32,820 nucleotides of DNA from Flavobacteriales bacterium (GCA_044356625.1 JBIKVX010000001.1:1-32820), one strand, 5' to 3'. Positions 2,607-27,203 are shown, counted from the first letter of the stretch. The notes: generated from the sequence alone by a model not told the origin. Translations and numbers: made by a program.

Positions 2607-2610
2607 TCAG

Positions 2611-2618
2611 CGAATATA
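2611..2618 (-). promoter_or_regulatory. Candidate Bacteroidota -7 box TATATTCG (one mismatch to TAnnTTTG), 4 nt upstream of the MBOAT ATG
   Basis: The minus strand reads CGGCTTCGCCG-TATATTCG-CTGA-ATG. The box directly abuts the outermost hairpin of the array at 2619-2812. Confidence 0.3.
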
Positions 2619-2812
2619 CGGCGAAGCCGATGACACCGAAGGTGATGACCCTACGGGATGACACTGCGTGATGACCGTTCCGGATGACACTCCGTGATGA
2701 CGCTCCGCGAAGCGGTCATCGAACTTGTTCGTCATCACATGAAATGTGTCATCCCAGAGGGTCATCAATCGTAGATTGTCATCCCGAAGGGTCATCCAGC
2801 TCCGCTGGTGAT
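2619..2812. repeat. Mini-hairpin array A: 13 consecutive short stem-loops joined by ATGA (x6), then TCAT (x6) linkers
   Basis: Direct parse of the + strand: CGGCgaaGCCG ATGA CACCgaaGGTG ATGA CCCtacGGG ATGA CACtgcGTG ATGA CCGttcCGG ATGA CACtccGTG ATGA cgctCCGCgaaGCGG TCAT CGAACttGTTCG TCAT CACATgaaATGTG TCAT CCCagaGGG TCAT CAATCgtaGATTG TCAT CCCgaaGGG TCAT CCAGCtccGCTGG TGAT. It lies in the divergent gap between the MBOAT gene and the phosphosugar mutase gene. Confidence 0.85.
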
Positions 2813-2837: not shown

Positions 2838-4610
2838 ATGACCCCCTTAGAATCCGCAAAAGAAAAAGCTAGACTTTGGAAAACATACGATTTAGATGAA
2901 GAGACGCGCAACGAGATTGAGCGTATGGAAAGAGAAGATGAGAAGTTGTTCATTGATTCGTTTTATTCGGATTTGGAATTTGGAACGGGTGGTTTGCGCG
3001 GTGTCATGGGTGTGGGAAGCATGCGTATGAACAAGTATACCGTGGGGATGGCTACGCAGGGATTGGCGAATTATATTTTGAAACACCATGCGCAAATGGG
3101 TGGAGAAGGCTCGGTGGCGATTGCGTATGACTCGCGAAACAATTCAAGTTACTTCGCGAATATTGCGTCTGAGATTTTGGCGAAGAATGGCATTCATGTT
3201 TATCTCTTTTCAGAATTGCGTCCAACACCGCTGTTGTCGTTCACCGTTCGTGAATTGAAATGCACGGCGGGTATTGTTATCACTGCTTCGCACAATCCGA
3301 AGGAGTACAACGGGTATAAAGTTTATTGGAGCGATGGCGGGCAGATATTGCCGCCGCATGACGGGGGGATAATCACGGAAGTGAAGATTGCAAATGCTGC
3401 GCAAGATGTTTCACAAGATGCAAATGCTTTGCAAGATTCTTCGAAAGATTCCTTCGGAAAGATTGGTGAAATAAAGGAAGTTCCTTCGGCAGTAGAAGAA
3501 AAATACCTGGAACTCGTTCGAGGATTGACGCTTTCTGAAGATGCCGTGAAGCAAGAGAAAGACATTTCCATTGTGTATACTTCTATACACGGTTCAGGGA
3601 TAACGTTGGTACCGAAGACATTGGCGGCGTTGGGGTTTTCGAATGTGAGTGTGGTGGAAGAGCAGGCGGTGCCCGATGGGAATTTCCCGACGGTGGAGTC
3701 ACCGAATCCGGAAGAGAAGTCGGCCATGAAAATGGCGTTGGAGTTGGGAGAGAAGGTAAATGCGGAATTGGTATTGGGAACAGATCCGGATACCGATCGC
3801 GTGGGATTGGCAGTGAGAAACGACAACAATGAATTGGTGTTGATCAATGGAAATCAAGCAGGAAGCTTGTTGGTGTATTACCGTTTGTTGGTGGGAAAGG
3901 AAAAAGGAAAATTACCTGAACATCCGTTTATTGGAAAGACGATTGTGACAACCGAATTGATTGCACGCATTGCGGAATCGTTCGGGGTGCCGTGTTACGA
4001 CACGTTAACCGGATTCAAGTTTATCGCGGGATTGATTAAAGAAAAAGAAGGAAAGGAAAATTTTGTAGCGGGTGGAGAAGAGAGCTACGGCTATTTGGTG
4101 AGTGATTTTGTGCGCGACAAAGACGCTGCATTGTCGGCTGTTCAGTTCGCAGAGATAGCGGCTTACGCGAAGAACAAAGGAACAACGATGTGGGGAATGT
4201 TGAAAGACCTTTACTTACAACACGGCGTGTTCCAGGAAGAGTTGGTAAGCATTACGTTGAAGGGAATAGACGGTGTTGCGCAGATTCAAAGCATGATGTC
4301 GCGTCTTCGCACCACACCTCCGCAAACCCTTGGCGGAGTAGCGCTAGCAGAATTGCACGATGTGAAAGCTGGCACCTGTAAAAACATGATTACCGGAGCA
4401 ACAACCACACTCCCCTATCCAAGCTCAGACGTCTTGCAATTCATCCTCACCGACGGCAGCAAGATCAGTGCTCGTCCAAGTGGGACGGAACCGAAGATTA
4501 AGTTTTACTTTTCGTTAAGGAAGGAGATTTCTTCTTCAGAAGAAATTTCTTCAGTTCAGAATGAACTGACAAAGAAGATTGAAATAATTAAAGCAGAGCT
4601 TTTGAATTAA
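2838..4610 (+). CDS. Phosphoglucomutase/phosphomannomutase family phosphosugar mutase (PgcA-like)
   Basis: Family loops present: TASHNPKEYNGYK (phosphoserine loop), GTDPDTDR (metal loop), GGEESYG (sugar loop), RPSGTEPKIKFY (phosphate loop). The track ORF begins at GTG 2808 inside the promoter-like box. I prefer the in-frame ATG at 2838 (MTPLESAKEK...). Confidence 0.9.
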   Translation: MTPLESAKEKARLWKTYDLDEETRNEIERMEREDEKLFIDSFYSDLEFGTGGLRGVMGVGSMRMNKYTVGMATQGLANYILKHHAQMGGEGSVAIAYDSRNNSSYFANIASEILAKNGIHVYLFSELRPTPLLSFTVRELKCTAGIVITASHNPKEYNGYKVYWSDGGQILPPHDGGIITEVKIANAAQDVSQDANALQDSSKDSFGKIGEIKEVPSAVEEKYLELVRGLTLSEDAVKQEKDISIVYTSIHGSGITLVPKTLAALGFSNVSVVEEQAVPDGNFPTVESPNPEEKSAMKMALELGEKVNAELVLGTDPDTDRVGLAVRNDNNELVLINGNQAGSLLVYYRLLVGKEKGKLPEHPFIGKTIVTTELIARIAESFGVPCYDTLTGFKFIAGLIKEKEGKENFVAGGEESYGYLVSDFVRDKDAALSAVQFAEIAAYAKNKGTTMWGMLKDLYLQHGVFQEELVSITLKGIDGVAQIQSMMSRLRTTPPQTLGGVALAELHDVKAGTCKNMITGATTTLPYPSSDVLQFILTDGSKISARPSGTEPKIKFYFSLRKEISSSEEISSVQNELTKKIEIIKAELLN

Positions 4611-8745: not shown

Positions 8746-9284
8746 AGTTTCTTTCTTGCAATTAATCTTACATGCTCTTCCTTTTCTTTGTTCGAGTCAA
8801 ATCTATCTCTTATTTTTTTTGCGGGATTTCCAGCATAAATAGCGTAAGGCTCGGTGTCTCGTGTAACCACAGAACCCGCTGCTATTAAACAACCGTCATG
8901 AATATTCACCCCCTGCATAATTGTTGAACCATAGCCTATCCACACATCATTGCCAATTCGAGTAACTAAATCTATTCCTTTCCAATTGTAGTGCTTATCT
9001 CTTATGGCGGAAGCTAAGCGAATTGGTGTGCCAATTTGTTGAAAGTTGTGGTCATATTTACCAACTACAGCCACCCGATTGCCAAAAATCACATTGTCAC
9101 CAATGATACAATCGGTTTCAATAAAAGAATCTCTTCCCAAATAAAAGTTTTTTCCTATAACCATTGTAGCTTTTGCCCAAATATTCGTGCGTTTTCCAGC
9201 ATGAAATCCCTTGTTTATTTTATACTTTCGATATTTAATTTGAACTAAGAAAATATCTCTAAACTTTTTTAAAAGCCTTCTCAT
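8742..9284 (-). CDS. Hexapeptide-repeat (LbH) O-acetyltransferase
   Basis: [50 protein letters not shown] is a typical left-handed beta-helix acetyltransferase C-terminus. Confidence 0.8.
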
Positions 9285-10177
9285 AATCCCAAAATTGTTT
9301 CGATTTTAGACCGTATTCTAGCAATATAGCCCATTTTTTTTTGAAATGATTTTTGCATTTCTGTGTCAATCTGTGTTATTCGAGGAAATTCAAAGTGCAC
9401 ATTGTTCTGCGCCTCAAAAATAGGAATATAGCGCTTTGAAGAGCCTCGTGTATGGGTCGAATTCATTCCAAAACCTACGTTTCGTATTTTTGAGACCTTT
9501 GGATAGAGTGTTAAGCCTTTTTCTTTAAATTGAGCGTAGAACCAACGAATGGCCCAAGAATCCAAGTCGCCGTTCATTTGTTTTTTTAACATTTGATTTA
9601 AATCTGATCCGCCTTTTGCAAATAGTCTTTTAGATTCTCTATCAACACTAAAACTTTCATAATCACTCATATTCCAATCAACTCTTTCCCATCGATTTTT
9701 CCATGTGGACCAGCCCCATGACCAGCCTCGATTCAAAAAATAAAACTCTGATTGATTATTCTTATTTAAATTAAATGAATATCCCGAAATTGAAAACACT
9801 GACGGTGATTCGTTAAATCGAATCAAGCCTTCATTCATGAAATTTAGAAAATTGGCACTTGTTACCAAATCATCTTCTAAAACAACAATCTTTTCATGAT
9901 CTAGAAAAATTTTACTAACCCCCTGAATAATTGAGTTTGCTAGCCCCATATTTTCAGTCGCTTCATAGACTTTTAGCAATTTAAACCCTTCAATTGCATT
10001 AACATAGGATCTTACTTTATCTACTTCAATCTTATCTACATCATTTTTCGCTGCATCACAAAAAACATACAATTCAGAGTCCGGCGCTAAAAAATTATTT
10101 TTAAGGGCCTCAACTGTTTGAATTAAAGTGTCAAGCCGTTTATAACAAAACAGTACAATTGGAGCTAATTGAGTCAT
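9281..10177 (-). CDS. Glycosyltransferase, GT-A fold (family not assigned)
   Basis: [13 protein letters not shown]...YVFCDAAKN...VVLEDDL gives a Rossmann-like N-terminus with an EDD-type acidic motif. It sits inside a glycosyltransferase run. The family call is tentative. Confidence 0.6.
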
Positions 10178-10211
10178 CTTTATTAAAATATTATGAGCAT
10201 GTCTTAAGTAT

Positions 10212-11051
10212 TTATTGTTTTAATTTCCACAATGCTGGTACAATTGCCCGTAAATGAATGGTAATATAGTGAAAACAGGCCACTACTAAACCATTATGTC
10301 TTTTATCGAATACAAAAAATTCGGGTGGGTAACAACCGCTCGATGCTGTATATAAATTTTGCAATCGCTTTCTCAAACCTACGGAAGTATTCCGCCATTT
10401 AGGAACAAAATCATGACTTTCACAGGTACCTATATAATCGGGGGCAACTAATATCTCGATTCCCATTTTACGTGCCCGAAGACTGTAATCGAAATCGCCC
10501 ACAGCATGATGAAAAATAGGGTCCAGATTTCCTACCTTGCGAAAAACTTCTTTTGGAATTAAAACGCAATTGCCGTTGCAATAGTCACTCCTTTGGTAGT
10601 CACCATTGGGTAAAACTAATTTCCGTAGTGTATTATTGTAACCGCCATAAGTTGCTTTTTGATCAAGTTGGGATTTCGTAGTTCCGCAAACGATAGCACT
10701 CGGAAACTTTTCCTTTAATAAAATTTGAAATGCATTTTTTTTCAAAAAAGTATCGTCATTCAACCATAAATAACAATCAAAATCTTTCGCAGCTGCTGCA
10801 GTTTCCCATGCCAGATGCATACCACGGTTCCAATACAGATTTCCATTCCCTTGAATGATGTATACTTGTGGGAACTCGTTTTTTACCGCTTCGCCAGTTC
10901 CATCATTAGAAGCATCGTCAACTAAAAAGACATCAATGGAATAGGATTCTTCTAATCCAGCTTGTTCGTACAAGGCGGTAACGCATTGGATGGTTTTATC
11001 CCGGCGATTGTGGCAGGTAAGAAGTACTGCAATTGTTGAGATTAGGATCAT
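10212..11051 (-). CDS. Glycosyltransferase family 2
   Basis: AVLLTCHNRRDKT...VFLVDDASNDGT...WLNDDTFL are classic GT2 motifs. Confidence 0.85.
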   Translation of the reverse strand: MILISTIAVLLTCHNRRDKTIQCVTALYEQAGLEESYSIDVFLVDDASNDGTGEAVKNEFPQVYIIQGNGNLYWNRGMHLAWETAAAAKDFDCYLWLNDDTFLKKNAFQILLKEKFPSAIVCGTTKSQLDQKATYGGYNNTLRKLVLPNGDYQRSDYCNGNCVLIPKEVFRKVGNLDPIFHHAVGDFDYSLRARKMGIEILVAPDYIGTCESHDFVPKWRNTSVGLRKRLQNLYTASSGCYPPEFFVFDKRHNGLVVACFHYITIHLRAIVPALWKLKQ

Positions 11052-11197
11052 TTAAAAACTAAACTAATTGGTTAAAAATACTTAATACAGTCTTTTTTCT
11101 TTCTGGGATTAGTATTTGAAATATACAGCACTCCCAGTATTTCAATTCTATTTTTCTTGAGCCAACAAACAAACATGTCTGGAGATAATAAAGACGA

Positions 11198-12427
11198 TCA
11201 GAATTGAGCAATTTTTTTATTGAAGTGGTTTGTTCCGGCATTTTGTTTTGATCGTTTCACATAAAAAAGAATTAAAATTATTGGGGAGAATTCCATTGGA
11301 TTCGAGAATATTATAAAAAGAATGCATAAAGTTGTAAAAATTGTGATTAAATGATTTTTTGAAAAATGTTGTAAGTTTCTATACAATAAACCTAAATATA
11401 TGATTAGGCCAAAAACCCCAAAAACCAACAAAAGATAAAATAAACCAGATGATCTAATTACATTAGCGCCATAAATTTTATAAAGACTGTTTTTTCCCGT
11501 TGTTTGTATATCAACACCGTATCCTAATAAAGGACGCTCCAAGAATGTCGGGAAATCTATAATGACACTAGTAAATCTTGTGACGCCGACAATATAGTCA
11601 GGGTTTTTATAAGCTTTATCAGCTTCTTCTTCGATTCCCTCTAGTTGAGCACTAATTTTACCGGATAATACTTGCGAATTATAAAATAAATACATCCCAA
11701 CTGGGAAAAATATAGCGAGGCCAATTACCTTGACTCTGCCTTTATAATTATTAAGAAAATTAAAAAGTAAAATCAAACCAAGCAATAAGTAACCCGTTGT
11801 AGATATAGTTGTCAATAAACCTAATGAGATAATTATCTTTTCTCTGGGTTTTTTTTCAGAGCTGTAAAATTGTAAAAGCAAAAGTGCTATAATTAAAAGT
11901 GCAGCAAAAGCACCTGGCTCCCACATGCAACCACTGTTCCGAATTGGGTGAACGCGGGTAAAATTAAAAAATAGCGAGTTAGAATTACCTCGAGAATCCA
12001 TCCCAAACAAGTTATTGAATTTAAACAATAAGTCGGGGACCAGTAATTGCAACACATATCCGAAAAAACTCACAATCGTCAAAAAACAGACAACTTTTAT
12101 AAAATTGTCAATGAACTGACTTTTATTTATTCTGACAATGAGAATTGCTAAAATGATTTTTATCAACCATCCCACCCATGTTACAATATTAATGCTCGAA
12201 TTTGCCACATAATAGTAGCCTATAATAAATATTACTAAAAATAATATGCTAAATAATTGTTTGCTAGAAAATTGAAATATTCTTTTTTTGATAGCATAAC
12301 CGAGCGTGAATAAAAAAAATAAACTTATGTAAATTTCATCTGATGAAATAAAAGATGCATTAGAACTAAATACAATCAAGGCAAAAACGAAAAAGTTATC
12401 GATGATTTGCTGTTTATTGATAATCAT
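11198..12427 (-). CDS. O-antigen/EPS polymerase (Wzy-like) polytopic membrane protein
   Basis: About 10 predicted TM segments, very A+T-rich, located between the flippase/acetyltransferase and glycosyltransferases. The track ORF extends to 12526 across the upstream gene. I start it at the in-frame ATG 12427 (MIINKQQ...). The function call rests on topology and context only. Confidence 0.6.
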   Translation of the reverse strand: MIINKQQIIDNFFVFALIVFSSNASFISSDEIYISLFFLFTLGYAIKKRIFQFSSKQLFSILFLVIFIIGYYYVANSSINIVTWVGWLIKIILAILIVRINKSQFIDNFIKVVCFLTIVSFFGYVLQLLVPDLLFKFNNLFGMDSRGNSNSLFFNFTRVHPIRNSGCMWEPGAFAALLIIALLLLQFYSSEKKPREKIIISLGLLTTISTTGYLLLGLILLFNFLNNYKGRVKVIGLAIFFPVGMYLFYNSQVLSGKISAQLEGIEEEADKAYKNPDYIVGVTRFTSVIIDFPTFLERPLLGYGVDIQTTGKNSLYKIYGANVIRSSGLFYLLLVFGVFGLIIYLGLLYRNLQHFSKNHLITIFTTLCILFIIFSNPMEFSPIILILFYVKRSKQNAGTNHFNKKIAQF

Positions 12428-13052
12428 TATTGTGTTTAATAAATTTAGCTGGGTTCCCTGCCCAAATTTCATTTTTTGGTATGGACTTCGTAACAACAGA
12501 ACATGCCCCGACAATAGAGTTTTCACCTATGATTACACCTTTTAGGATTGTCGAATGGGCCCCAATAAAGCAATTATCCTCTAAGAATACTGGTGCCGTT
12601 TTGGTATTTGATTTATCTAACTTACTGTTGTTTCTGTTGTCAGGATTCAAACTATGGAAATCCGTATCATAAATAACAACATTTCCTCCTATTCTTACAT
12701 TATTACCTATTGTAATGACATTCGAGCAGAAAATAGCTGTTGAACTCATACCTAAATTATTTCCTATTTTCAGAACGCCTTTTTCACCAACAATTATACT
12801 ACATTTATTAAACCGGCCTATTGGATTAGCGTTTTCTCTATTGTTCATTTTCAAATTTTCTCCTATGAAGAGATAACCTCCTAATGAAACGTTTACTTTC
12901 GGCACTCCATTACTTTTAAAAGTCGAGAATTTGGCGCCGTTCACAAATAACAAAATATATGTTGTTAAATAATCTATTGGTTTTTGAATTATGAAAATAA
13001 TTCTTTTTAAGACTTTAAAAAGGCGTGTTAAGGTCATTTTCATTGGTTCCAA
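12414..13052 (-). CDS. Hexapeptide-repeat (LbH) acetyltransferase
   Basis: IGNNVRIGGNVVIYDTDFHSL...CFIGAHSTILKGVIIGENSIVGACSVVTKSIPKNEIWAGNPAKFI. Confidence 0.8.
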   Translation of the reverse strand: MEPMKMTLTRLFKVLKRIIFIIQKPIDYLTTYILLFVNGAKFSTFKSNGVPKVNVSLGGYLFIGENLKMNNRENANPIGRFNKCSIIVGEKGVLKIGNNLGMSSTAIFCSNVITIGNNVRIGGNVVIYDTDFHSLNPDNRNNSKLDKSNTKTAPVFLEDNCFIGAHSTILKGVIIGENSIVGACSVVTKSIPKNEIWAGNPAKFIKHNNDYQ

Positions 13053-14404
13053 ATTCCTTTTGCTGTTTCAGATATAATTTTTTTAAACTGTATTCTAGAA
13101 AAAATAACCCCCGGGGCAATACAAATTATAGTGCTAATCATAACTCCTACAACTCCAAAATCAAGTGATTTTGCAATGTAAATAGAAAGAGGTATATTTA
13201 TTAGTGCCATTAATAAAGACAGGTATAGTTGAATCTTAATTTTTCCAGTTGCATTTATATAATAATTATATGGTGTTAACACAATAATAAAAATCGTCAT
13301 AATGCAAACCGCAAGATTTATTTCAAAAGGAATGAATACGGAGGGACCTAGCCAAAAATTTAAAATGTACTTTGACAGAAATAGAATCACTAAACAGAGA
13401 ATTGAAAATAGAATAACAAATCGCTCAAGACTCTTCATAGCACCTTTAATCCAGATGGTATCGGCTTTCACATGCGCCTCCGTAAAAGTTGACCAATAGG
13501 GGGTCGCCAATATTGCAAATATCATTGAACTAATCGTAAATAGTTTTAAGGAAAGGTTATATTGAACAACATCTTCAGGGGAGAATAGTTGAGAAATAAT
13601 TATATTGTCGGTAGAGGTAATTACCACCCATGAAATTTGAATTATAAAAAATTTGCTCCCCAATCCGAAAATATCTTTCAAGTGCTCTTTCTTCCAATAT
13701 TTATAATCAGGTTTGCAATAGTTATATCGTCCTTTAAAAGCAAGGAAATTAAACCCAACCAACAAAAGTGCAGGAAACACTGAGTAAATAACACCAAAAA
13801 TAAGCAAAGAACTATTTGTGGTTTTCGTCAACAACCAAACTATCAACAAGGACCCTAAATTAGTAAGAAAAGTTATCTTCCCTTGAGTTGAATGGTGTTG
13901 GTCCGCTGTATAAATTGTGGTTATTAGTTTTACGACTAATTGCAAACAGAAGAAACCAAATAAAATAGGCATTAAGAGACCTAGGTCTTTGTGTAATGAC
14001 GGAGAGGTATTAAAGACTTTCGTCCAATCAATAAAAAAGTTAAGTCCTACAAACAAAATAATTAACCCGATACTAACAGCACCAATTGTGAAATAAGCTG
14101 AACTCACAAAAGCCTTGGCAAGAGTTAAATCTCCATTGGCCTTGGCTTCGGCAAATTTATTGCGTAAACCATTACCTAATCCAATGTCAAAAAATGAAAA
14201 CCAAGCAATAAAAGAACTCAACGTTAACCAAATTCCATAATTCTCTATTTCTAGAAAATTAATGGTCAATGGGACAATCATAAAACTCGCCAATATACTT
14301 CCGCCTTTGTAAATAAAAGAAAGAAGAACATGCTTGGTTATGTTTTTCGTGCGGTCGCTTTTAATCCCAAATTTATTGTAAAGCTTTTCTATTCTTCGTC
14401 CCAA
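13040..14404 (-). CDS. wzx: Wzx-type polysaccharide flippase (MOP superfamily)
   Basis: 454 aa with about 12 TM segments and a typical position in the cluster. The track start is TTG 14404 with an A-rich upstream region; the exact start is uncertain. Confidence 0.8.
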   Translation of the reverse strand: MGRRIEKLYNKFGIKSDRTKNITKHVLLSFIYKGGSILASFMIVPLTINFLEIENYGIWLTLSSFIAWFSFFDIGLGNGLRNKFAEAKANGDLTLAKAFVSSAYFTIGAVSIGLIILFVGLNFFIDWTKVFNTSPSLHKDLGLLMPILFGFFCLQLVVKLITTIYTADQHHSTQGKITFLTNLGSLLIVWLLTKTTNSSLLIFGVIYSVFPALLLVGFNFLAFKGRYNYCKPDYKYWKKEHLKDIFGLGSKFFIIQISWVVITSTDNIIISQLFSPEDVVQYNLSLKLFTISSMIFAILATPYWSTFTEAHVKADTIWIKGAMKSLERFVILFSILCLVILFLSKYILNFWLGPSVFIPFEINLAVCIMTIFIIVLTPYNYYINATGKIKIQLYLSLLMALINIPLSIYIAKSLDFGVVGVMISTIICIAPGVIFSRIQFKKIISETAKGIWNQ

Positions 14405-14555
14405 TTCTTTCTTTATAAAAATTTATTTCAAGACTATAATAGTCGTGCCTCTTGCTCATCCCACGAAATTGCAAATGATTTTGCTACCCTGAAGCGATTT
14501 GGTGGCATTCAAGGTAATTGACATCGCAATGGCCATAATGGCTTCACACTTCTTA

Positions 14556-20318: not shown

Positions 20319-20360
20319 ATTCCTACTTCGTAATTCCTATTTCATAATTCCTACTTTGTA
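20319..20360. repeat. Three tandem 14-bp repeats ATTCCTAYTTYRTA upstream of the dehydrogenase/EPS operon
   Basis: attcctacttcgta (20319-20332), attcctatttcata (20333-20346), attcctactttgta (20347-20360). A partial copy cttcgtaatt lies at 20292-20301. Confidence 0.8.
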
Positions 20361-20427
20361 ATTAGAAACGTCGCAGGCCCTCGTCCACAGGACCCTCGCA
20401 ACGACAGTTGCCCTCGTCTAAAAGACC

Positions 20428-24680: not shown

Positions 24681-25718
24681 TTAGTCTTCCAGGTGAATGG
24701 GGTAAATAATTTCATTCGCAGGAATGGACGAAGTGGTGCGTTTTCCAACCACCAAATTTCGTTGTGCCCATTTGAAACCGTCTCCTGGAGAGAGCATGCA
24801 CAAGTCTGATTCTTCAATAATTTTTCCAGCTGGAATTTCACGAACGGCAGCAATGCTTCTTTCCAATTTCAAGCGAGCGGAAGCAACAGAATCTTCAATC
24901 TTCATTTCCACTTCACCCAAAGACAATTCGAGTTCACGAATGTCGCGCACCATGCGTCGAATGCCTTCTGGGCCGAGGGATCCGCGCTGGTCGGTTCCCT
25001 TCAGATTACGATCAGTGGTGATGTGCTTTTCAATGATGGTAGCCCCCATAGCAACGGCGGCAACCGGAGTAAAAATTCCGAGCGTGTGATCGCTGAAACC
25101 AATGTTGTATTGAGGGTAGTTGTTTTGTAAAAAGCGAATGGTATTTAGATTTACATTCTTCGGCTGCGTGGGGTATTCCGAGGTGCAGTGAAGAATGCTA
25201 ATGTTTGAATGGTAATGCGAAATAATGTCTAACGCATGATCGAGCTCTTCCTTTCCGGCCATACCGGTAGAGAGAATGATCGGAATTTTCGTTTCCGCCA
25301 AAGCTCCCAATAGCGGGAGGTTCGTGAGGTCGCGACTTGCAACTTTCAGATAATCGGGGGTGATTCGTTTCAACAACGAAAGACATCCAGTTGCGCAAAG
25401 CGTTTCCACAAAATCTAATCCTTTCGATTTAGAATAATGAAACAATTCTTCATGTTGCTCGTCGTTCAATTCAAGAAATGCCCTGTGTTCACCGTAAGTG
25501 GCACCGAAGGAATGTGGACTGTTGTAGGGCGCATTCATTTGCGATTGACTGAGTTCTTCATTCAAGTCGCGCTTGGTGAGCTTCACCGCATTCATGGGTT
25601 TCAGTTCGAGCTGAAAATAATCTTCCACGACAGGAGCAGCTGCGAGGTCTATGATTTCCTTCGCCAGCTCTATTGAACCGTTGTGGTTTTGTCCTATTTC
25701 TCCGATTATGTAGGTCAC
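24681..25718 (-). CDS. NeuB-family nonulosonic acid (sialic acid / KDN-9-P type) synthase with C-terminal SAF domain
   Basis: YIIGEIGQNHNGS N-terminal motif, HCTSEYPTQPKNVNL, GFSDHTLG, EKHIT, and a C-terminal SAF-like domain. The track ORF extends to ATG 25835 inside repeat array B. I start at in-frame GTG 25718 (VTYIIGEIG...), by analogy with the short N-termini of NeuB enzymes. Confidence 0.85.
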   Translation of the reverse strand: MTYIIGEIGQNHNGSIELAKEIIDLAAAPVVEDYFQLELKPMNAVKLTKRDLNEELSQSQMNAPYNSPHSFGATYGEHRAFLELNDEQHEELFHYSKSKGLDFVETLCATGCLSLLKRITPDYLKVASRDLTNLPLLGALAETKIPIILSTGMAGKEELDHALDIISHYHSNISILHCTSEYPTQPKNVNLNTIRFLQNNYPQYNIGFSDHTLGIFTPVAAVAMGATIIEKHITTDRNLKGTDQRGSLGPEGIRRMVRDIRELELSLGEVEMKIEDSVASARLKLERSIAAVREIPAGKIIEESDLCMLSPGDGFKWAQRNLVVGKRTTSSIPANEIIYPIHLED

Positions 25719-25722
25719 TTTA

Positions 25723-25730
25723 CAAATATA
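25723..25730 (-). promoter_or_regulatory. Candidate -7 box TATATTTG abutting array B, 4 nt upstream of the GTG start of the NeuB-like gene
   Basis: The minus strand reads CACGCGAAGTG-TG-TATATTTG-TAAA-GTG. This is the same 8-mer that follows array A. Confidence 0.3.
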
Positions 25731-25732
25731 CA

Positions 25733-25898
25733 CACTTCGCGTGATGACCACTTCGTGGAATACACCTGCTGTGATGACCCTGCGGGATGACGCTTCGCGA
25801 TGACACTTCGTGACAACCATCCGCGAAGCGGTCATCGAACTTGTTCGTCATCGATTGTAAATCGTCATCACACGACGTCTGTCATCCTTCGAAGAAGG
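25733..25898. repeat. Mini-hairpin array B: 11 stem-loops with ATGA-type, then TCAT linkers; same family as array A
   Basis: The + strand parses as CACttcgcGTG ATGA CCACttcGTGG AATA CACctgctGTG ATGA CCCtgcGGG ATGA CGCttcGCG ATGA CACttcGTG ACAA ccatCCGCgaaGCGG TCAT CGAACttGTTCG TCAT CGATTgtaAATCG TCAT CACACgacGTCTG TCAT CCTTCgaaGAAGG. The array ends exactly at the TAA of the DUF2480-like gene (25899-25901). Confidence 0.85.
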
Positions 25899-26393
25899 TT
25901 AACGCTTATAAAGCGGGACAGTGGAGCAGGGCTCTCCGTACATGATGCGGTTGGCAGCGGGTTGAAGTTTTTGAGAGAGTTGTATATACACTTCCTCTGT
26001 TAATCGGAGTGAGGTGCAGCCCTTCACGACTACATTTTTATCTTGAAATTTCGAAAGATCTAATTGTTGAATAAATGAAAGCGCTCTGAGTGTGTCTAAA
26101 TTTTCTGGCGTTGAAAAATGACACTGGGCATTCACTTCGGAAAGTTTCAATGCCAATAGCATAAAGGCCCATACTGGTACAATGGCATCTACCGAACAGT
26201 AAATGGCTACAATTTTATTCTCGAAATTAGAGGTGTCTAATGCAGAAACAAATTCACGAAAGTCCTTTTCCTTCAGGGCAATTCCTTGCCACAATTGTGG
26301 AGCAATATCTATTGTCGAACCTGCAAACGCATCTACTTCTTCAGCTATATCCAGCGTAATGAGTTTACTATTTGCAACCTTGTTTTCAATCAT
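25899..26393 (-). CDS. DUF2480-like conserved Bacteroidota protein (function unknown)
   Basis: 164 aa. LITLDI...KEKDFREF...CSVDAIVPVWAFML...VVKGC...IMYGEPCSTVPLYKR matches my recollection of the DUF2480 family pattern. No search was run. Confidence 0.55.
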   Translation of the reverse strand: MIENKVANSKLITLDIAEEVDAFAGSTIDIAPQLWQGIALKEKDFREFVSALDTSNFENKIVAIYCSVDAIVPVWAFMLLALKLSEVNAQCHFSTPENLDTLRALSFIQQLDLSKFQDKNVVVKGCTSLRLTEEVYIQLSQKLQPAANRIMYGEPCSTVPLYKR

Positions 26394-26397
26394 GGTT

Positions 26398-26405
26398 CAA
26401 AAGTA
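26398..26405 (-). promoter_or_regulatory. Candidate -7 box TACTTTTG, 4 nt upstream of the DUF2480-like ATG
   Basis: The minus strand reads TACTTTTG-AACC-ATG, an exact TAnnTTTG match. Confidence 0.3.
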
Positions 26406-26497
26406 CTTGATTCTGGTGAAAGATGTTTCACAAGATTCTGCGAAAGCTCTTGCGAAGCACCTTCGGAACGACCTTGCTCCGCATCTTGAAACAAATC

Positions 26498-27178
26498 TTA
26501 ATTCGCGTATCTCTCACTCACAAAATTCCAATTCACAACCGTGAAAATGGCAGTTAGATAATCTGCGCGTTTGTTCTGATATTTCAAGTAATACGCGTGT
26601 TCCCAAACGTCTATTCCGAAAATGGGCGTGCCGGGCTTTTCAACCACTTTCACCATTAACGGATTGTCTTGATTCGGAGTTGAGGTCACGAAAAGAATTC
26701 CCTTCGTGTCTTTGCACAACCACACCCATCCGCTGCCGAAACGTGCTTTGCCTTCGTCGGTCATGAGTTTTTTCAAATTTTCCATGCTTCCGAAATCGCG
26801 CTGAATGGCTGCCGACAATTCTTTACTCGGCGCTCCTGCTGTGCTCGGCGCTGCCATGCAATTCCAGAAAAAACTGTGGTTGAAATGTCCTCCGCCGTTG
26901 TTGCGAATGGCCATATCCTTCGGTTCAATAGCCGCGCACAATTCTTCAATGTTCAACTTCGCATATTTTTGATTAACCTCAACCTTCATAGCGGCATTCA
27001 AATTCGTTACATACGCCAAGTGATGTTTGTCGTGATGAATATGCATAGTCTCGGCATCAATAGCAGGTTCCAAAGCCTCGAAGGCGTATGGTAATTCTGG
27101 GACAGTCCATTCCTGTGCAAAAACAGAAACTCCAGCGAAAAGAAATACACCCACAAGCAACAAATTCTTCATAGTCAT
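26498..27178 (-). CDS. sod: Fe/Mn superoxide dismutase with N-terminal signal peptide
   Basis: LPELPYAFEALEPAIDAETMHIHHDKHH and GIDVWEHAYYLKYQNKRADY. Signal-like MTMKNLLLVGVFLFAGVSVFAQ; start taken at ATG 27178 rather than track TTG 27196. Confidence 0.9.
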   Translation of the reverse strand: MTMKNLLLVGVFLFAGVSVFAQEWTVPELPYAFEALEPAIDAETMHIHHDKHHLAYVTNLNAAMKVEVNQKYAKLNIEELCAAIEPKDMAIRNNGGGHFNHSFFWNCMAAPSTAGAPSKELSAAIQRDFGSMENLKKLMTDEGKARFGSGWVWLCKDTKGILFVTSTPNQDNPLMVKVVEKPGTPIFGIDVWEHAYYLKYQNKRADYLTAIFTVVNWNFVSERYAN

Positions 27179-27203
27179 CGTTATTGTTTCATTCAAACAA
27201 CCA

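What the first reader, a model, noticed from the sequence alone, without database searches (positions are those of the whole stretch)
25733..25898. Second copy of the mini-hairpin array, 23 kb away, inside a co-directional gene block
**What the sequence shows**
- The same grammar recurs between the DUF2480-like stop and the NeuB-like start.
- It has six left-arm units joined by ATGA (with degenerate AATA and ACAA linkers), a central CCGC-GAA-GCGG hairpin, then four right-arm units each preceded by a TCAT linker (25832, 25848, 25865, 25882).
- Ten of the 11 units pair perfectly. CACACgacGTCTG has one C-C mismatch.

**Polarity**
- Left-arm loops are TTC/TGC type, the complement of GNA.
- The 3-nt right-arm loops are GTA/GAC/GAA (GNA type). 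The first right-arm unit instead has a 2-nt TT loop.
- This suggests an oriented unit [C-stem GNA stem-G TCAT] present in opposite orientation on the two arms.
- Array A shows the same tendency less cleanly: TAC, TGC, TTC, TCC on the left and GAA, GTA, GAA on the right.

**Context**
Unlike array A, this copy sits between two same-strand genes, so it is probably transcribed. It also creates the spurious ATG 25835 that inflates the NeuB-like ORF in the track.
Basis: seen in the sequence. Interest (0 to 1): 0.85.

Follow-up and report, generated by a model that had tools for sequence, protein, structure and literature searches.

The report
Hypervariable mini-hairpin repeat array (REP-like)
The 166-base stretch is one copy of a previously undescribed family of intergenic DNA repeats in an uncultured freshwater Flavobacteriales lineage, built from strings of 9-15-base mini-hairpins joined by the invariant linker ATGA, which gain and lose units between close strains much like the REP/BIME repeats of E. 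coli.

Summary
Window 25731-25898 holds six ATGA-linked mini-palindromes, a CCGC-GAA-GCGG centre, then four TCAT-linked mini-palindromes. They fill the whole gap between the DUF2480 stop codon (25899) and a TATATTTG box just before the NeuB GTG start (25718).

It is one member of a dispersed family:
- I found about 80 arrays at about 20 different intergenic sites in related freshwater Flavobacteriales/Crocinitomicaceae MAGs and metagenome contigs.
- Of 721 units, 96% are perfect mini-palindromes, against 3% after shuffling. They use only about 20 stem "words".
- All 61 two-armed arrays read [ATGA-hairpin]n then [hairpin-TCAT]m, and none has the reverse order.

At orthologous sites the end units stay fixed. 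The interior changes by tandem block duplication (5-22 units), centre inversion and exchange of blocks between loci. Relatives at 73% DUF2480 amino-acid identity or less lack the array.

The predicted long foldback is a by-product, because native arms pair worse than swapped arms.

Best reading: a REP/BIME-like, DNA-level repeat with ATGA in place of GTAG. A RAYT-type enzyme is inferred, not shown. Loop polarity is a 3.7:1, word-specific tendency, not a rule.

I found nothing like it in Rfam or in the papers I searched. I rate it a new variant of a known kind.

The parts
25731..25743 (.). Terminal mini-hairpin CACAC-TTC-GCGTG with one A.C mismatch. It abuts the -7 box of NeuB.
   Evidence: Orthologues carry the perfect form CACACTTCGTGTG. 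CACAC..GTGTG is a recurrent end-of-array word.
25744..25812 (.). ATGA-first arm. The linkers are ATGA at 25744, 25774, 25787 and 25800, and a degenerate AATA at 25759. The units are CCACTTCGTGG, CACCTGCTGTG, CCCTGCGGG, CGCTTCGCG and CACTTCGTG.
   Evidence: All of these except the mismatched CACCTGCTGTG are among the common family words.
25813..25820 (.). Degenerate junction ACAACCAT between the left arm and the centre (centre type 2).
   Evidence: The same junction, ACAATAAT, is present in the orthologue L117, so it is inherited.
25821..25831 (.). Centre hairpin CCGC-GAA-GCGG, which contains the GCGAAGC DNA mini-hairpin sequence. This is the point where linker orientation switches.
   Evidence: It is present at the switch point of most two-armed arrays found independently of it. 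The exception is L038. The stability of GCGNAGC mini-hairpins is described in PMC13037366.
25832..25898 (.). TCAT arm. TCAT sits at 25832, 25848, 25865 and 25882. The units are CGAACTTGTTCG, CGATTGTAAATCG, CACACGACGTCTG (one C.C mismatch) and CCTTCGAAGAAGG.
   Evidence: An identical core plus two units occurs in L034 and L043 at other genomic sites.
25899..26393 (-). DUF2480 gene. Its stop codon (25899-25901) touches the last hairpin with no spacer.
25723..25730 (-). TATATTTG, a Bacteroidetes -7 promoter-type box (TAnnTTTG). It lies directly outside the array, four bases before the NeuB GTG start.
   Evidence: The same box-N4-start geometry occurs at many array ends. The box is present in relative L223, which lacks the array.
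24681..25718 (-). NeuB-family gene with its true start at GTG 25718. ATG 25835 lies inside the array and is spurious.
2619..2808 (.). Array A, the sister copy. It has a terminal CGGCGAAGCCG, five ATGA units, the centre ATGACGCTCCGCGAAGCGGTCAT, five TCAT units and a terminal CCAGCTCCGCTGG. It lies between the divergent MBOAT and PGM/PMM genes.
   Evidence: -7-type boxes face outward at both ends: TATATTCG (reverse complement of 2611-2618) and TATATTTG (2813-2820).

Best explanation
Array B is one locus of a lineage-specific, dispersed family of non-coding DNA repeats that is closest in kind to REP/BIME elements.

**The unit.** The elementary unit is 5'-ATGA + C-stem-triloop-stem-G, 13-19 nt long with a 3-6 bp stem. 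This is a conserved tetranucleotide at the 5' foot of a small hairpin, as in GTAG-REPs. Units are strung head to tail. They converge from both strands on a centre that usually contains CCGCGAAGCGG.

**What is shown**
- The units are selected or propagated as mini-hairpins, not as one long foldback.
- The arrays sit only in intergenic spacers. They fill the spacer up to the neighbouring stop codon or -7 promoter box.
- They were gained inside one clade.
- At a fixed site they evolve quickly by tandem duplication or loss of 1-5-unit blocks, by inversion of the centre, and by import of blocks from arrays at other loci.

**What is inferred**
- The hairpins matter in single-stranded DNA. The strand complementary to most units carries C-GNA-G, the extraordinarily stable DNA mini-hairpin.
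- Spread and turnover are driven by replication slippage and recombination.
- A hairpin-plus-tetranucleotide-recognising HUH/Y1 enzyme of the RAYT type may also be involved.
- Any effect on expression is secondary and depends on context. Candidates are a 3'-end structure or terminator for DUF2480, insulation from the NeuB promoter, and ribosome or exonuclease blocks.
For: **Family and anatomy**
- About 80 arrays occur at about 20 sites in related MAGs and metagenome contigs.
- There are 721 units but only 142 distinct ones. 96.4% are perfect palindromes, against 2.8% after shuffling.
- Only about 20 stem words are used, and loops vary mainly at the middle base.
- 61 of 61 two-armed arrays are ATGA-arm then TCAT-arm. 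The tetranucleotide is therefore on the outside, like the dominant head-to-head REP dimers (PMC3733652).
- Published REPs written GTAG-first also carry TNC-type triloops such as TGC, TCC and TCT (tables in PMC6006769).

**Mini-hairpin, not foldback**
- Native arms pair worse than swapped arms: -46.5 against -52.2 kcal/mol. The native pairing was better in only 6 of 42 arrays. A perfect mirror would give -104 kcal/mol.
- 16 arrays are one-armed.

**DNA-level and context-free**
- Divergent, convergent and co-directional gaps are all occupied.
- Array A lies upstream of two outward-facing promoters.
- The grammar reads the same on both strands.

**Dynamics**
- Unit number at one site ranges from 5 to 22.
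- Two- to four-unit blocks are repeated in tandem.
- The centre is inverted between strains whose flanks are 87-95% identical.
- L149 site A carries a block typical of site B.
- This matches the copy-number variation and recombination described for BIME-2 (PMC3333891).

**Gain**
- Syntenic relatives with 73%, 59% and 54% DUF2480 identity have no arrays.

**Other**
- RAYT subclass 2.6 is Bacteroidetes-specific and is associated with atypical, non-GTAG hairpins (PMC6006769).
- The arrays are GC-rich, 52-56% against 41% for the window.
Against: - No RAYT/Y1 gene was found in about 0.8 Mb of fetched DNA from these organisms. That is a small sample, so the enzyme link is untested.
- The units are much shorter than any described REP: 3-6 bp stems against 8-12 bp.
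- The tetranucleotide is ATGA, not GTAG or CGTC.
- The head-to-tail arrangement is rare in described REP families.
- Arrays persist at every orthologous site examined within the clade, and their end units are conserved. This could equally reflect a selected function.
- Nearest-neighbour energies favour the long foldback over local hairpins for a fully single-stranded array: -58 to -98 kcal/mol global against about -33 to -41 local.
Confidence: 0.6

Rival explanations
1. It is a selected cis-acting RNA element. When transcribed, the multi-hairpin array would act as a terminator, an insulator or a 3'-end stabiliser between transcription units, as shown for E. coli REP325.
For: - Array B and several other arrays start directly after a stop codon.
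- The terminal hairpin followed by TATATTTGTA scores as terminator-like.
- REPs act as dual terminator and stabiliser elements (bioRxiv 10.64898/2026.03.23.713779).
- Arrays are retained at all orthologous sites within the clade, with conserved end units.
Against: - Several sites lie between divergent genes, upstream of both promoters. The array should not be transcribed there.
- Unit number and centre orientation vary freely between close strains.
- Syntenic relatives do without arrays and have near-zero spacers.
- There is no Rfam match.
Confidence: 0.2
2. It is a double-stranded DNA binding array. GATGAC/GTCATC hexamers would be iterated sites for a nucleoid-associated or regulatory protein placed next to promoters.
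For: - The hexamer is the only invariant sequence.
- Arrays often lie immediately upstream of -7 boxes.
- BIMEs bind IHF and gyrase (own knowledge; also mentioned in PMC3333891).
Against: - Site spacing is 13, 15, 16, 17, 18 or 19 bp within one array, so there is no helical phasing.
- This reading does not explain why 96% of spacers are perfect palindromes with T-N-C/G-N-A triloops.
- Arrays also lie between convergent genes, far from promoters.
Confidence: 0.1
3. It is one long foldback, either a MITE-like element with terminal inverted repeats or a long-hairpin RNA. The two arms would pair with each other and the mini-hairpins would be incidental.
For: Minimum-free-energy folds pair the arms: B at -63/-67 kcal/mol (z about -3 to -4) and A at -98 kcal/mol (z -7.7).
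Against: - Native arms are less complementary than arms swapped between arrays.
- The arms are not mirror images and their loops are not complementary.
- 16 arrays have one arm only.
- There is no fixed length and no visible target-site duplication.
Confidence: 0.05
4. The arrays are recombination platforms that capture accessory genes, working like cassettes with the arrays as portable homology or as site-specific sites.
For: Accessory genes lie between array parts:
- a HigB/HigA-like pair in L117;
- a 23S_rRNA_IVP protein in six or more contigs;
- a DUF4143 AAA ATPase in L201, inserted into array A relative to the window.

DUF2480 is flanked by arrays and inverted in L117.
Against: - Housekeeping operons such as accB-accC are flanked in the same way.
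- There is no recombinase nearby.
- The insertion junctions show no common motif.
- With a dense repeat family, flanking by chance is expected.
Confidence: 0.05

Closest known systems
REP / BIME elements (especially BIME-2) of Enterobacteria and Pseudomonas, with their RAYT (TnpA_REP) transposases
   Same: - Extragenic and dispersed.
- The unit is a conserved tetranucleotide at the 5' foot of a hairpin with a triloop.
- The tetranucleotide is on the outside in inverted arrangements.
- Copy number at a locus varies between strains.
- Blocks are exchanged and amplified.
   Different: - The linker is ATGA, not GTAG.
- Stems are 3-6 bp and perfect, not 8-12 bp with a mismatch.
- Units are packed head to tail with only 4 nt between them. 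BIMEs have alternating orientation with longer linkers.
- The arrays also sit between divergent promoters.
- No RAYT has been seen so far.
Atypical REPs of Bacteroidetes RAYT subclass 2.6 (Quentin et al. 2018, PMC6006769)
   Same: - Same phylum.
- Non-GTAG foot.
- 3-nt loops of the TCC/TCT/TGC/GCA type.
- Copies are scattered in the genome.
   Different: - The listed examples have 8-10 bp stems and feet such as GCTAG/GCTGG.
- None is an ATGA-linked tandem array.
- None comes from this lineage.
Neisserial intergenic mosaic elements (NIMEs/dRS3) and pneumococcal BOX elements (own knowledge; dRS3 clusters are mentioned in PMC3733652)
   Same: - Modular intergenic mosaics built from a small vocabulary of short repeats.
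- A variable number of internal modules between conserved ends.
   Different: - Their modules are 20-150 bp and are not mini-hairpins.
- The sequences are unrelated and the taxa are different.
Small dispersed repeats of cyanobacteria (Elhai et al. 2008; own knowledge)
   Same: Very small (about 20-27 nt) hairpin-forming repeats that insert next to or into each other.
   Different: - Those occur nested or singly, not in long two-armed arrays with an invariant linker.
- They are unrelated in sequence.
d(GCGNAGC) extraordinarily stable DNA mini-hairpins (Hirao and colleagues; PMC13037366)
   Same: - The centre CCGCGAAGCGG contains GCGAAGC.
- The complementary strand of most units has C-GNA-G closed loops.
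   Different: - That is a physico-chemical motif, not a genomic element family.
- The commonest unit, CCG-TTC-CGG, has the unfavourable G...C closing pair.

Membership tests
REP/BIME | Short palindromic unit able to form a hairpin | tested here: met
   695 of 721 units are perfect stems of at least 3 bp with loops of at most 4 nt, against 2.8% after shuffling. The units are only 9-15 nt, shorter than the 20-40 nt of described REPs.
REP/BIME | Conserved GT[AG]G (or CGTC) tetranucleotide at one foot of the hairpin | tested here: not met
   The invariant tetranucleotide is ATGA (TCAT on the other strand). It has the same position and polarity as GTAG, but it is neither of the two described tags.
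REP/BIME | Extragenic, dispersed, many copies per genome | tested here: inconclusive
   All arrays are intergenic. There are 2 in this 32.8-kb window and about 20 distinct sites in about 0.7 Mb of related contigs. A whole-genome count was not possible.
REP/BIME | BIME architecture: REPs in alternating orientation separated by defined linkers | tested here: not met
   Units are head to tail within an arm. There is a single orientation switch per array, and 61 of 61 arrays follow this pattern.
REP/BIME | Copy number at a locus varies between strains (BIME-2, atypical BIMEs) | tested here: met
   5-22 units at one orthologous site, with tandem block duplications. Compare PMC3333891.
REP/BIME | Cognate RAYT (TnpA_REP) gene flanked by the repeats (REPtron) | tested here: inconclusive
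   A motif scan and phmmer with E. coli RayT against all ORFs of the fetched Bacteroidota loci found nothing. Less than one genome-equivalent was searched.
MITE | Fixed-length element with terminal inverted repeats and target-site duplication | tested here: not met
   Length varies from about 70 to 360 bp. The arms are not mirror images. No duplication is visible when the filled site is compared with the empty site in L223.
CRISPR array | Identical repeats alternating with unique spacers; cas genes | tested here: not met
   The only constant part is 4-6 nt. The "spacers" are drawn from about 20 recurring palindromic words. No cas genes are present in the window.
Any Rfam RNA family | Covariance-model match at or near the gathering score | tested here: not met
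   No hit at gathering thresholds in the window. Only chance-level hits (E at least 0.06, far below gathering) appear in 25650-25980.
Intrinsic terminator | GC-rich hairpin followed by a U-tract at the end of a gene | tested here: inconclusive
   Only the outermost hairpin followed by TATATTTGTA fits a loose consensus on the minus strand. The internal units are followed by ATGA/TCAT.
Integron attC / cassette array | Imperfect inverted repeats with R/L boxes and extrahelical bases, next to an integron integrase | not tested
   No integrase is present among the window genes scanned. Genes flanked by arrays include housekeeping operons. attC models were not run.

The most novel reading that the evidence does not exclude
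Each 13-19-nt word (hairpin plus ATGA) is itself a minimal mobile module. A hairpin-recognising HUH/Y1 enzyme would copy it and insert it 3' of an existing ATGA (relaxed form xTxA) on single-stranded DNA. Every insertion would then create a new target, and arrays would grow by self-targeting.

This would make these the smallest mobile DNA units known. It would explain:
- the invariant linker;
- the mixed unit lengths within one array;
- the small, orientation-fixed vocabulary shared across loci and species;
- the xTxA tetranucleotide that precedes the outermost hairpins;
- the appearance of new words inside orthologous arrays.

The arrays would also serve as landing pads for accessory genes.
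Probability: 0.15. Interest if true: 0.85.

Novelty: new variant of a known kind. Interest (0 to 1): 0.62.

Why it matters
- REP-type repeats are well studied in Proteobacteria but barely described in Bacteroidota. This family reduces the "tetranucleotide + hairpin" design to 13 nt and packs it into arrays.
- The arrays behave like minisatellites. They could serve as strain-typing markers in freshwater Flavobacteriales.
- They are a natural test bed for how hairpin repeats expand, invert and recombine.
- They also have practical effects:
  - they end or break metagenome contigs (for example L227, L117, L171, L193);
  - they create false start codons that lengthen ORF calls, as at ATG 25835;
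  - they sit exactly between stop codons and leaderless-type promoters, where they may set transcription-unit boundaries.
- If a cognate Y1 enzyme exists, its recognition of a 3-bp-stem hairpin would be the minimal substrate known for that family.

Tried and rejected
- **Rfam.** Gathering thresholds on the whole window and E-value mode on 25650-25980 gave nothing meaningful. There are no tRNA or tmRNA genes.
- **Viral contigs.** The one core match, L220, is a 60%-GC chance hit with no array.
- **Phage and plasmid collections.** No similarity.
- **Genome-scan hits outside the family.** Most of the 117 hits to GATGAC-N7-GATGAC-N7-GATGAC are chance matches in high-GC genomes or unrelated non-palindromic 13-nt tandem repeats (L006, L007, L010, L026, L069, L073, L079).
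- **L201 7020-7180.** The ATGACCTTCAGA repeat there is a coding 12-nt repeat in the PGM gene, not a family member.
- **RAYT search.** A motif regex and phmmer with E. coli RayT (fetched) found nothing in the fetched loci. I could not obtain a Bacteroidetes RAYT seed or scan whole genomes.
- **Arm asymmetry.** My early idea that the short-word arm is always left of a GAA-oriented centre held only weakly (mean period 15.5 against 16.4 nt). Site 1 contradicts it.
- **Promoter as part of the repeat.** I rejected the idea that the -7 box belongs to the repeat, because it is present in L223 without the array.
- **Cassette gene orientation.** A rule for the orientation of genes lying between array parts did not hold; L053 is the exception.
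- **Literature.** Searches for the sequences, for REP-like repeats in Flavobacteria or Crocinitomicaceae, and for hairpin arrays found no description.

Full report
**1. What is in the window**

Window 25731-25898 reads as a terminal hairpin, an ATGA-linked arm, a centre and a TCAT-linked arm. In order:
- CACACTTCGCGTG, then ATGA
- CCACTTCGTGG, then AATA (degenerate linker)
- CACCTGCTGTG, then ATGA
- CCCTGCGGG, then ATGA
- CGCTTCGCG, then ATGA
- CACTTCGTG, then the degenerate junction ACAACCAT
- the centre CCGCGAAGCGG
- TCAT-CGAACTTGTTCG
- TCAT-CGATTGTAAATCG
- TCAT-CACACGACGTCTG
- TCAT-CCTTCGAAGAAGG

The next base starts the DUF2480 stop codon (25899-25901, minus strand).

On the other side the array ends at a TATATTTG box (25723-25730, minus strand). 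This box lies four bases before GTG 25718. I take GTG 25718 as the NeuB start, because the protein read from there carries the NeuB and SAF domains and begins VTYIIGEIGQNHNG.

GATGAC/GTCATC occurs 29 times in the window against 13 expected, with no shuffle reaching 29. Twenty of the 29 lie in this array and in array A at 2619-2808. The two arrays align at 81% over 100 nt. Two small corrections apply: the array starts at 25731, and three units rather than one have a single stem mismatch.

**2. It is a large family**

  - Most hits were chance matches in high-GC genomes.
  - A coherent set of freshwater MAGs carried true arrays. They are labelled Flavobacteriales (Lake Mendota), Crocinitomicaceae and Bacteroidota (rivers).
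- A metagenome scan with the core GCTCCGCGAAGCGGTCATC gave 102 loci.
- Together these hold about 80 arrays at about 20 different genomic sites.
- Several loci are orthologous to the window.
  - L145 and L216 (95% identical flanks), L148 (87%) and L117 (80%) cover site B.
  - L200, L174, L149, L173 and L201 cover site A.
- Array B is identical in three further samples (L226-L228).
- There were no matches in viral contigs (one chance hit), phage genomes or plasmids. Rfam gave nothing.

**3. Grammar of the family**

I extracted 721 units lying between consecutive same-orientation linkers.
- 96.4% are perfect palindromes with stems of at least 3 bp and loops of at most 4 nt. The figure is 2.8% when the inner bases are shuffled.
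- Only 142 distinct units occur, built on about 20 stem words:
  - CCG, CAC, CGC, CCC
  - CCAC, CACC, CGGC, CCGC, CAAC
  - CCTTC, CACAT, CGATT, CACTC, CAATC, CAAAC, CCAGC, CGAAC
  - CACAAC, CGCAAC
- The same words recur in different MAGs and at different sites.
- Loops vary mostly at the middle base. In ATGA-first orientation they are T-N-C in 406 units, G-N-A in 109 and other in 96.
- The G-N-A cases belong to particular words: CACC, CGGC, CCGC and CCAGC.
- All 61 two-armed arrays have the ATGA-first arm on the left and the TCAT arm on the right, and none has the opposite order. Sixteen arrays have one arm only.
- The switch point usually contains CCGC-GAA-GCGG. It occurs either overlapped with CGC-TCC-GCG (type 1, as in array A) or after a degenerate junction (type 2, as in array B and L117).
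- One minimal array found without using the core, L038, turns around on CACAACGTGTTGTG instead.

**4. Which structure is the real one**

Minimum-free-energy folding of the whole array pairs the two arms: B at -63/-67 kcal/mol and A at -98 kcal/mol. Local hairpins alone give only -33 to -41 kcal/mol with RNA parameters.

This pairing follows automatically from two arms made of GC-rich palindromes and complementary linkers. I took the four innermost units of each arm and swapped right arms between arrays.
- The chimeras fold better than the native combinations: -52.2 against -46.5 kcal/mol.
- The native combination was better in only 6 of 42 arrays (Wilcoxon p about 6e-8).
- A perfect mirror arm would give -104 kcal/mol.

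Native arms therefore use different words and, if anything, avoid mutual complementarity. This would be expected if long perfect palindromes are not tolerated. With the one-armed arrays added, the conserved object is the mini-hairpin plus its linker, not a long foldback.

**5. Where arrays sit, and how they change**

*Position.*
- Sites occur between divergent genes (for example array A and the site upstream of accB), between convergent genes (downstream of accC) and between co-directional genes (array B).
- Arrays fill the spacer completely.
  - Many ends read hairpin-TTA, which is the stop codon of the gene running into the array.
  - Many other ends read hairpin-TA(T/C)xTT(T/C)G-N4-ATG. This is a Bacteroidetes-type -7 box placed as for a leaderless mRNA.
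- The box is not part of the repeat. L223, a relative with 73% DUF2480 identity, has TATCTTTG-TAAG-GTG before NeuB but an unrelated 52-nt spacer instead of the array.
- More distant syntenic relatives, L221 and L222 (59% and 54% identity), have near-zero spacers and no arrays in 20 and 15 kb. The arrays are a gain within one clade.

*Change at orthologous sites*.
- The outermost units are conserved and the interior turns over.
- Unit number ranges from 5 to 22 at one site.
- Two- to four-unit blocks are repeated in tandem. L145 has three copies of CGGC/CACTC/CCAGC where L148 has one.
- The centre is inverted between strains. At site B, the window and L117 differ from L145, L216 and L148. At site 1 both orientations occur.
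- L149's copy of array A contains a five-unit block typical of site B, which indicates exchange between loci.

*Larger rearrangements at arrays.*
- L201 has a 1.8-kb DUF4143 ATPase insertion inside array A.
- L117 has a HigB/HigA-like pair between arrays, and the DUF2480 gene is inverted.
- A 23S_rRNA_IVP gene is flanked by arrays in six or more contigs.
- The accB-accC operon is flanked in the same way.

**6. Interpretation**

*Resemblance to REP/BIME elements.* The unit is a conserved tetranucleotide at the 5' foot of a small hairpin with a triloop. It is extragenic and dispersed, it is placed so that the tetranucleotide is on the outside of inverted arrangements, and its copy number differs between strains. 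That is the design of REP/BIME elements (PMC3333891, PMC3733652). Published REPs written GTAG-first also carry TGC, TCC and TCT triloops (PMC6006769 tables).

*Evidence for a DNA-level element.*
- The strand complementary to most units carries C-GNA-G, and the centre contains GCGAAGC. These are the extraordinarily stable DNA mini-hairpins (PMC13037366).
- The arrays occur in untranscribed divergent gaps.
- The grammar is symmetric between the two strands.

*Conclusion.* I therefore favour a DNA-level, REP/BIME-like repeat. It expands by slippage and recombination. It may also be acted on by a RAYT-type Y1 enzyme. Bacteroidetes have their own RAYT subclass (2.6), which is associated with atypical non-GTAG hairpins.

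*Limits.* The enzyme step is an inference. I found no RAYT in about 0.8 Mb of fetched DNA and could not scan whole genomes. Effects on expression are plausible secondary consequences by analogy with REP325. They would include a 3' structure or terminator for DUF2480 and insulation of the NeuB promoter. They are untested.

**7. Comparison with known elements, and novelty**

- The family fails two defining REP/BIME features, the GTAG or CGTC tag and the alternating orientation.
- It also differs from REP/BIME in scale: 3-6 bp perfect stems, 4-nt linkers and head-to-tail packing.
- It meets three others: hairpin units, extragenic dispersal and strain-variable copy number.
- It is not a MITE, a CRISPR array, an Rfam RNA or an attC array.
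- Full-text searches found no description of these sequences or of REP-like arrays in Flavobacteria or Crocinitomicaceae. That library is incomplete.
- I rate the family a new variant of a known kind, of moderate to high interest.
- The most novel reading still open is that each 13-19-nt word is itself a self-targeting mobile module that inserts 3' of ATGA.

Noticed in passing
window 26394-26497 and 3384-3464; L201 7020-7180; L223 100-230: A second, unrelated repeat family with a period of about 12-15 nt (AAGATGTTTCACAAGATTCTGCGAAAG...). It fills the DUF2480-SOD spacer. It also occurs in frame inside the PGM/PMM gene, between domains I and II, where it encodes ANAAQDVSQDANALQDSSKDSFGK. In L201 the same spot is expanded as ATGACCTTCAGA repeats. 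L223 has a 38-nt tandem version upstream of DUF2480.
   Followed up: partly
window 20319-20363: Three tandem copies of a 14-nt unit, ATTCCTACTTCGTA, in the 195-nt spacer downstream of the histidine-kinase gene.
   Followed up: no
window 2607-2618, 2813-2840, 25716-25730; many loci: Genes next to arrays show a fixed geometry: TAnnTT(T/C)G, four bases, then the start codon. Examples are MBOAT, NeuB, an Rce1-like protease and others. This suggests that leaderless transcripts are common in this lineage. NeuB would then be a leaderless GTG start, which is unusual.
   Followed up: partly
window about 9000-14500: A low-GC island (0.30-0.37 against 0.41 overall) spans several minus-strand genes. It is possibly a horizontally acquired polysaccharide-type cluster.
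   Followed up: no
L117 1-2000 against window 25700-27200: In this 80%-identical relative the DUF2480 gene plus array B is inverted relative to SOD. A Gp49/HigB-like toxin with an HTH antitoxin is inserted between two arrays.
   Followed up: partly
L201 7985-9763: A 1.8-kb insertion splits array A relative to the window. It carries a DUF4143/AAA_14 ATPase, with three tandem TTTTACTTCCGAGTTTGGCGC repeats upstream of the gene.
   Followed up: partly
L227 end, L117 start, L171 start, L193 end, L143 end, L013 end: Metagenome and MAG contigs frequently stop inside or right at an array. The family therefore fragments short-read assemblies of these organisms.
   Followed up: no
L034 410-808, L115 1405-1803, L166, L195, L202, L218: A nearly identical 132-aa 23S_rRNA_IVP (four-helix-bundle) gene sits between a one-armed array and a two-armed array in at least six contigs.
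   Followed up: partly
L069 3256-3471 and 5363-5476; L079 616-750; L026: Other Bacteroidota and Akkermansia contigs carry non-palindromic 13-nt tandem repeats that also start with ATGAC (ATGACCACGCTCG, ATGACTATCTGCG, ATGACTGGGGGGG). They are probably unrelated to this family.
   Followed up: no
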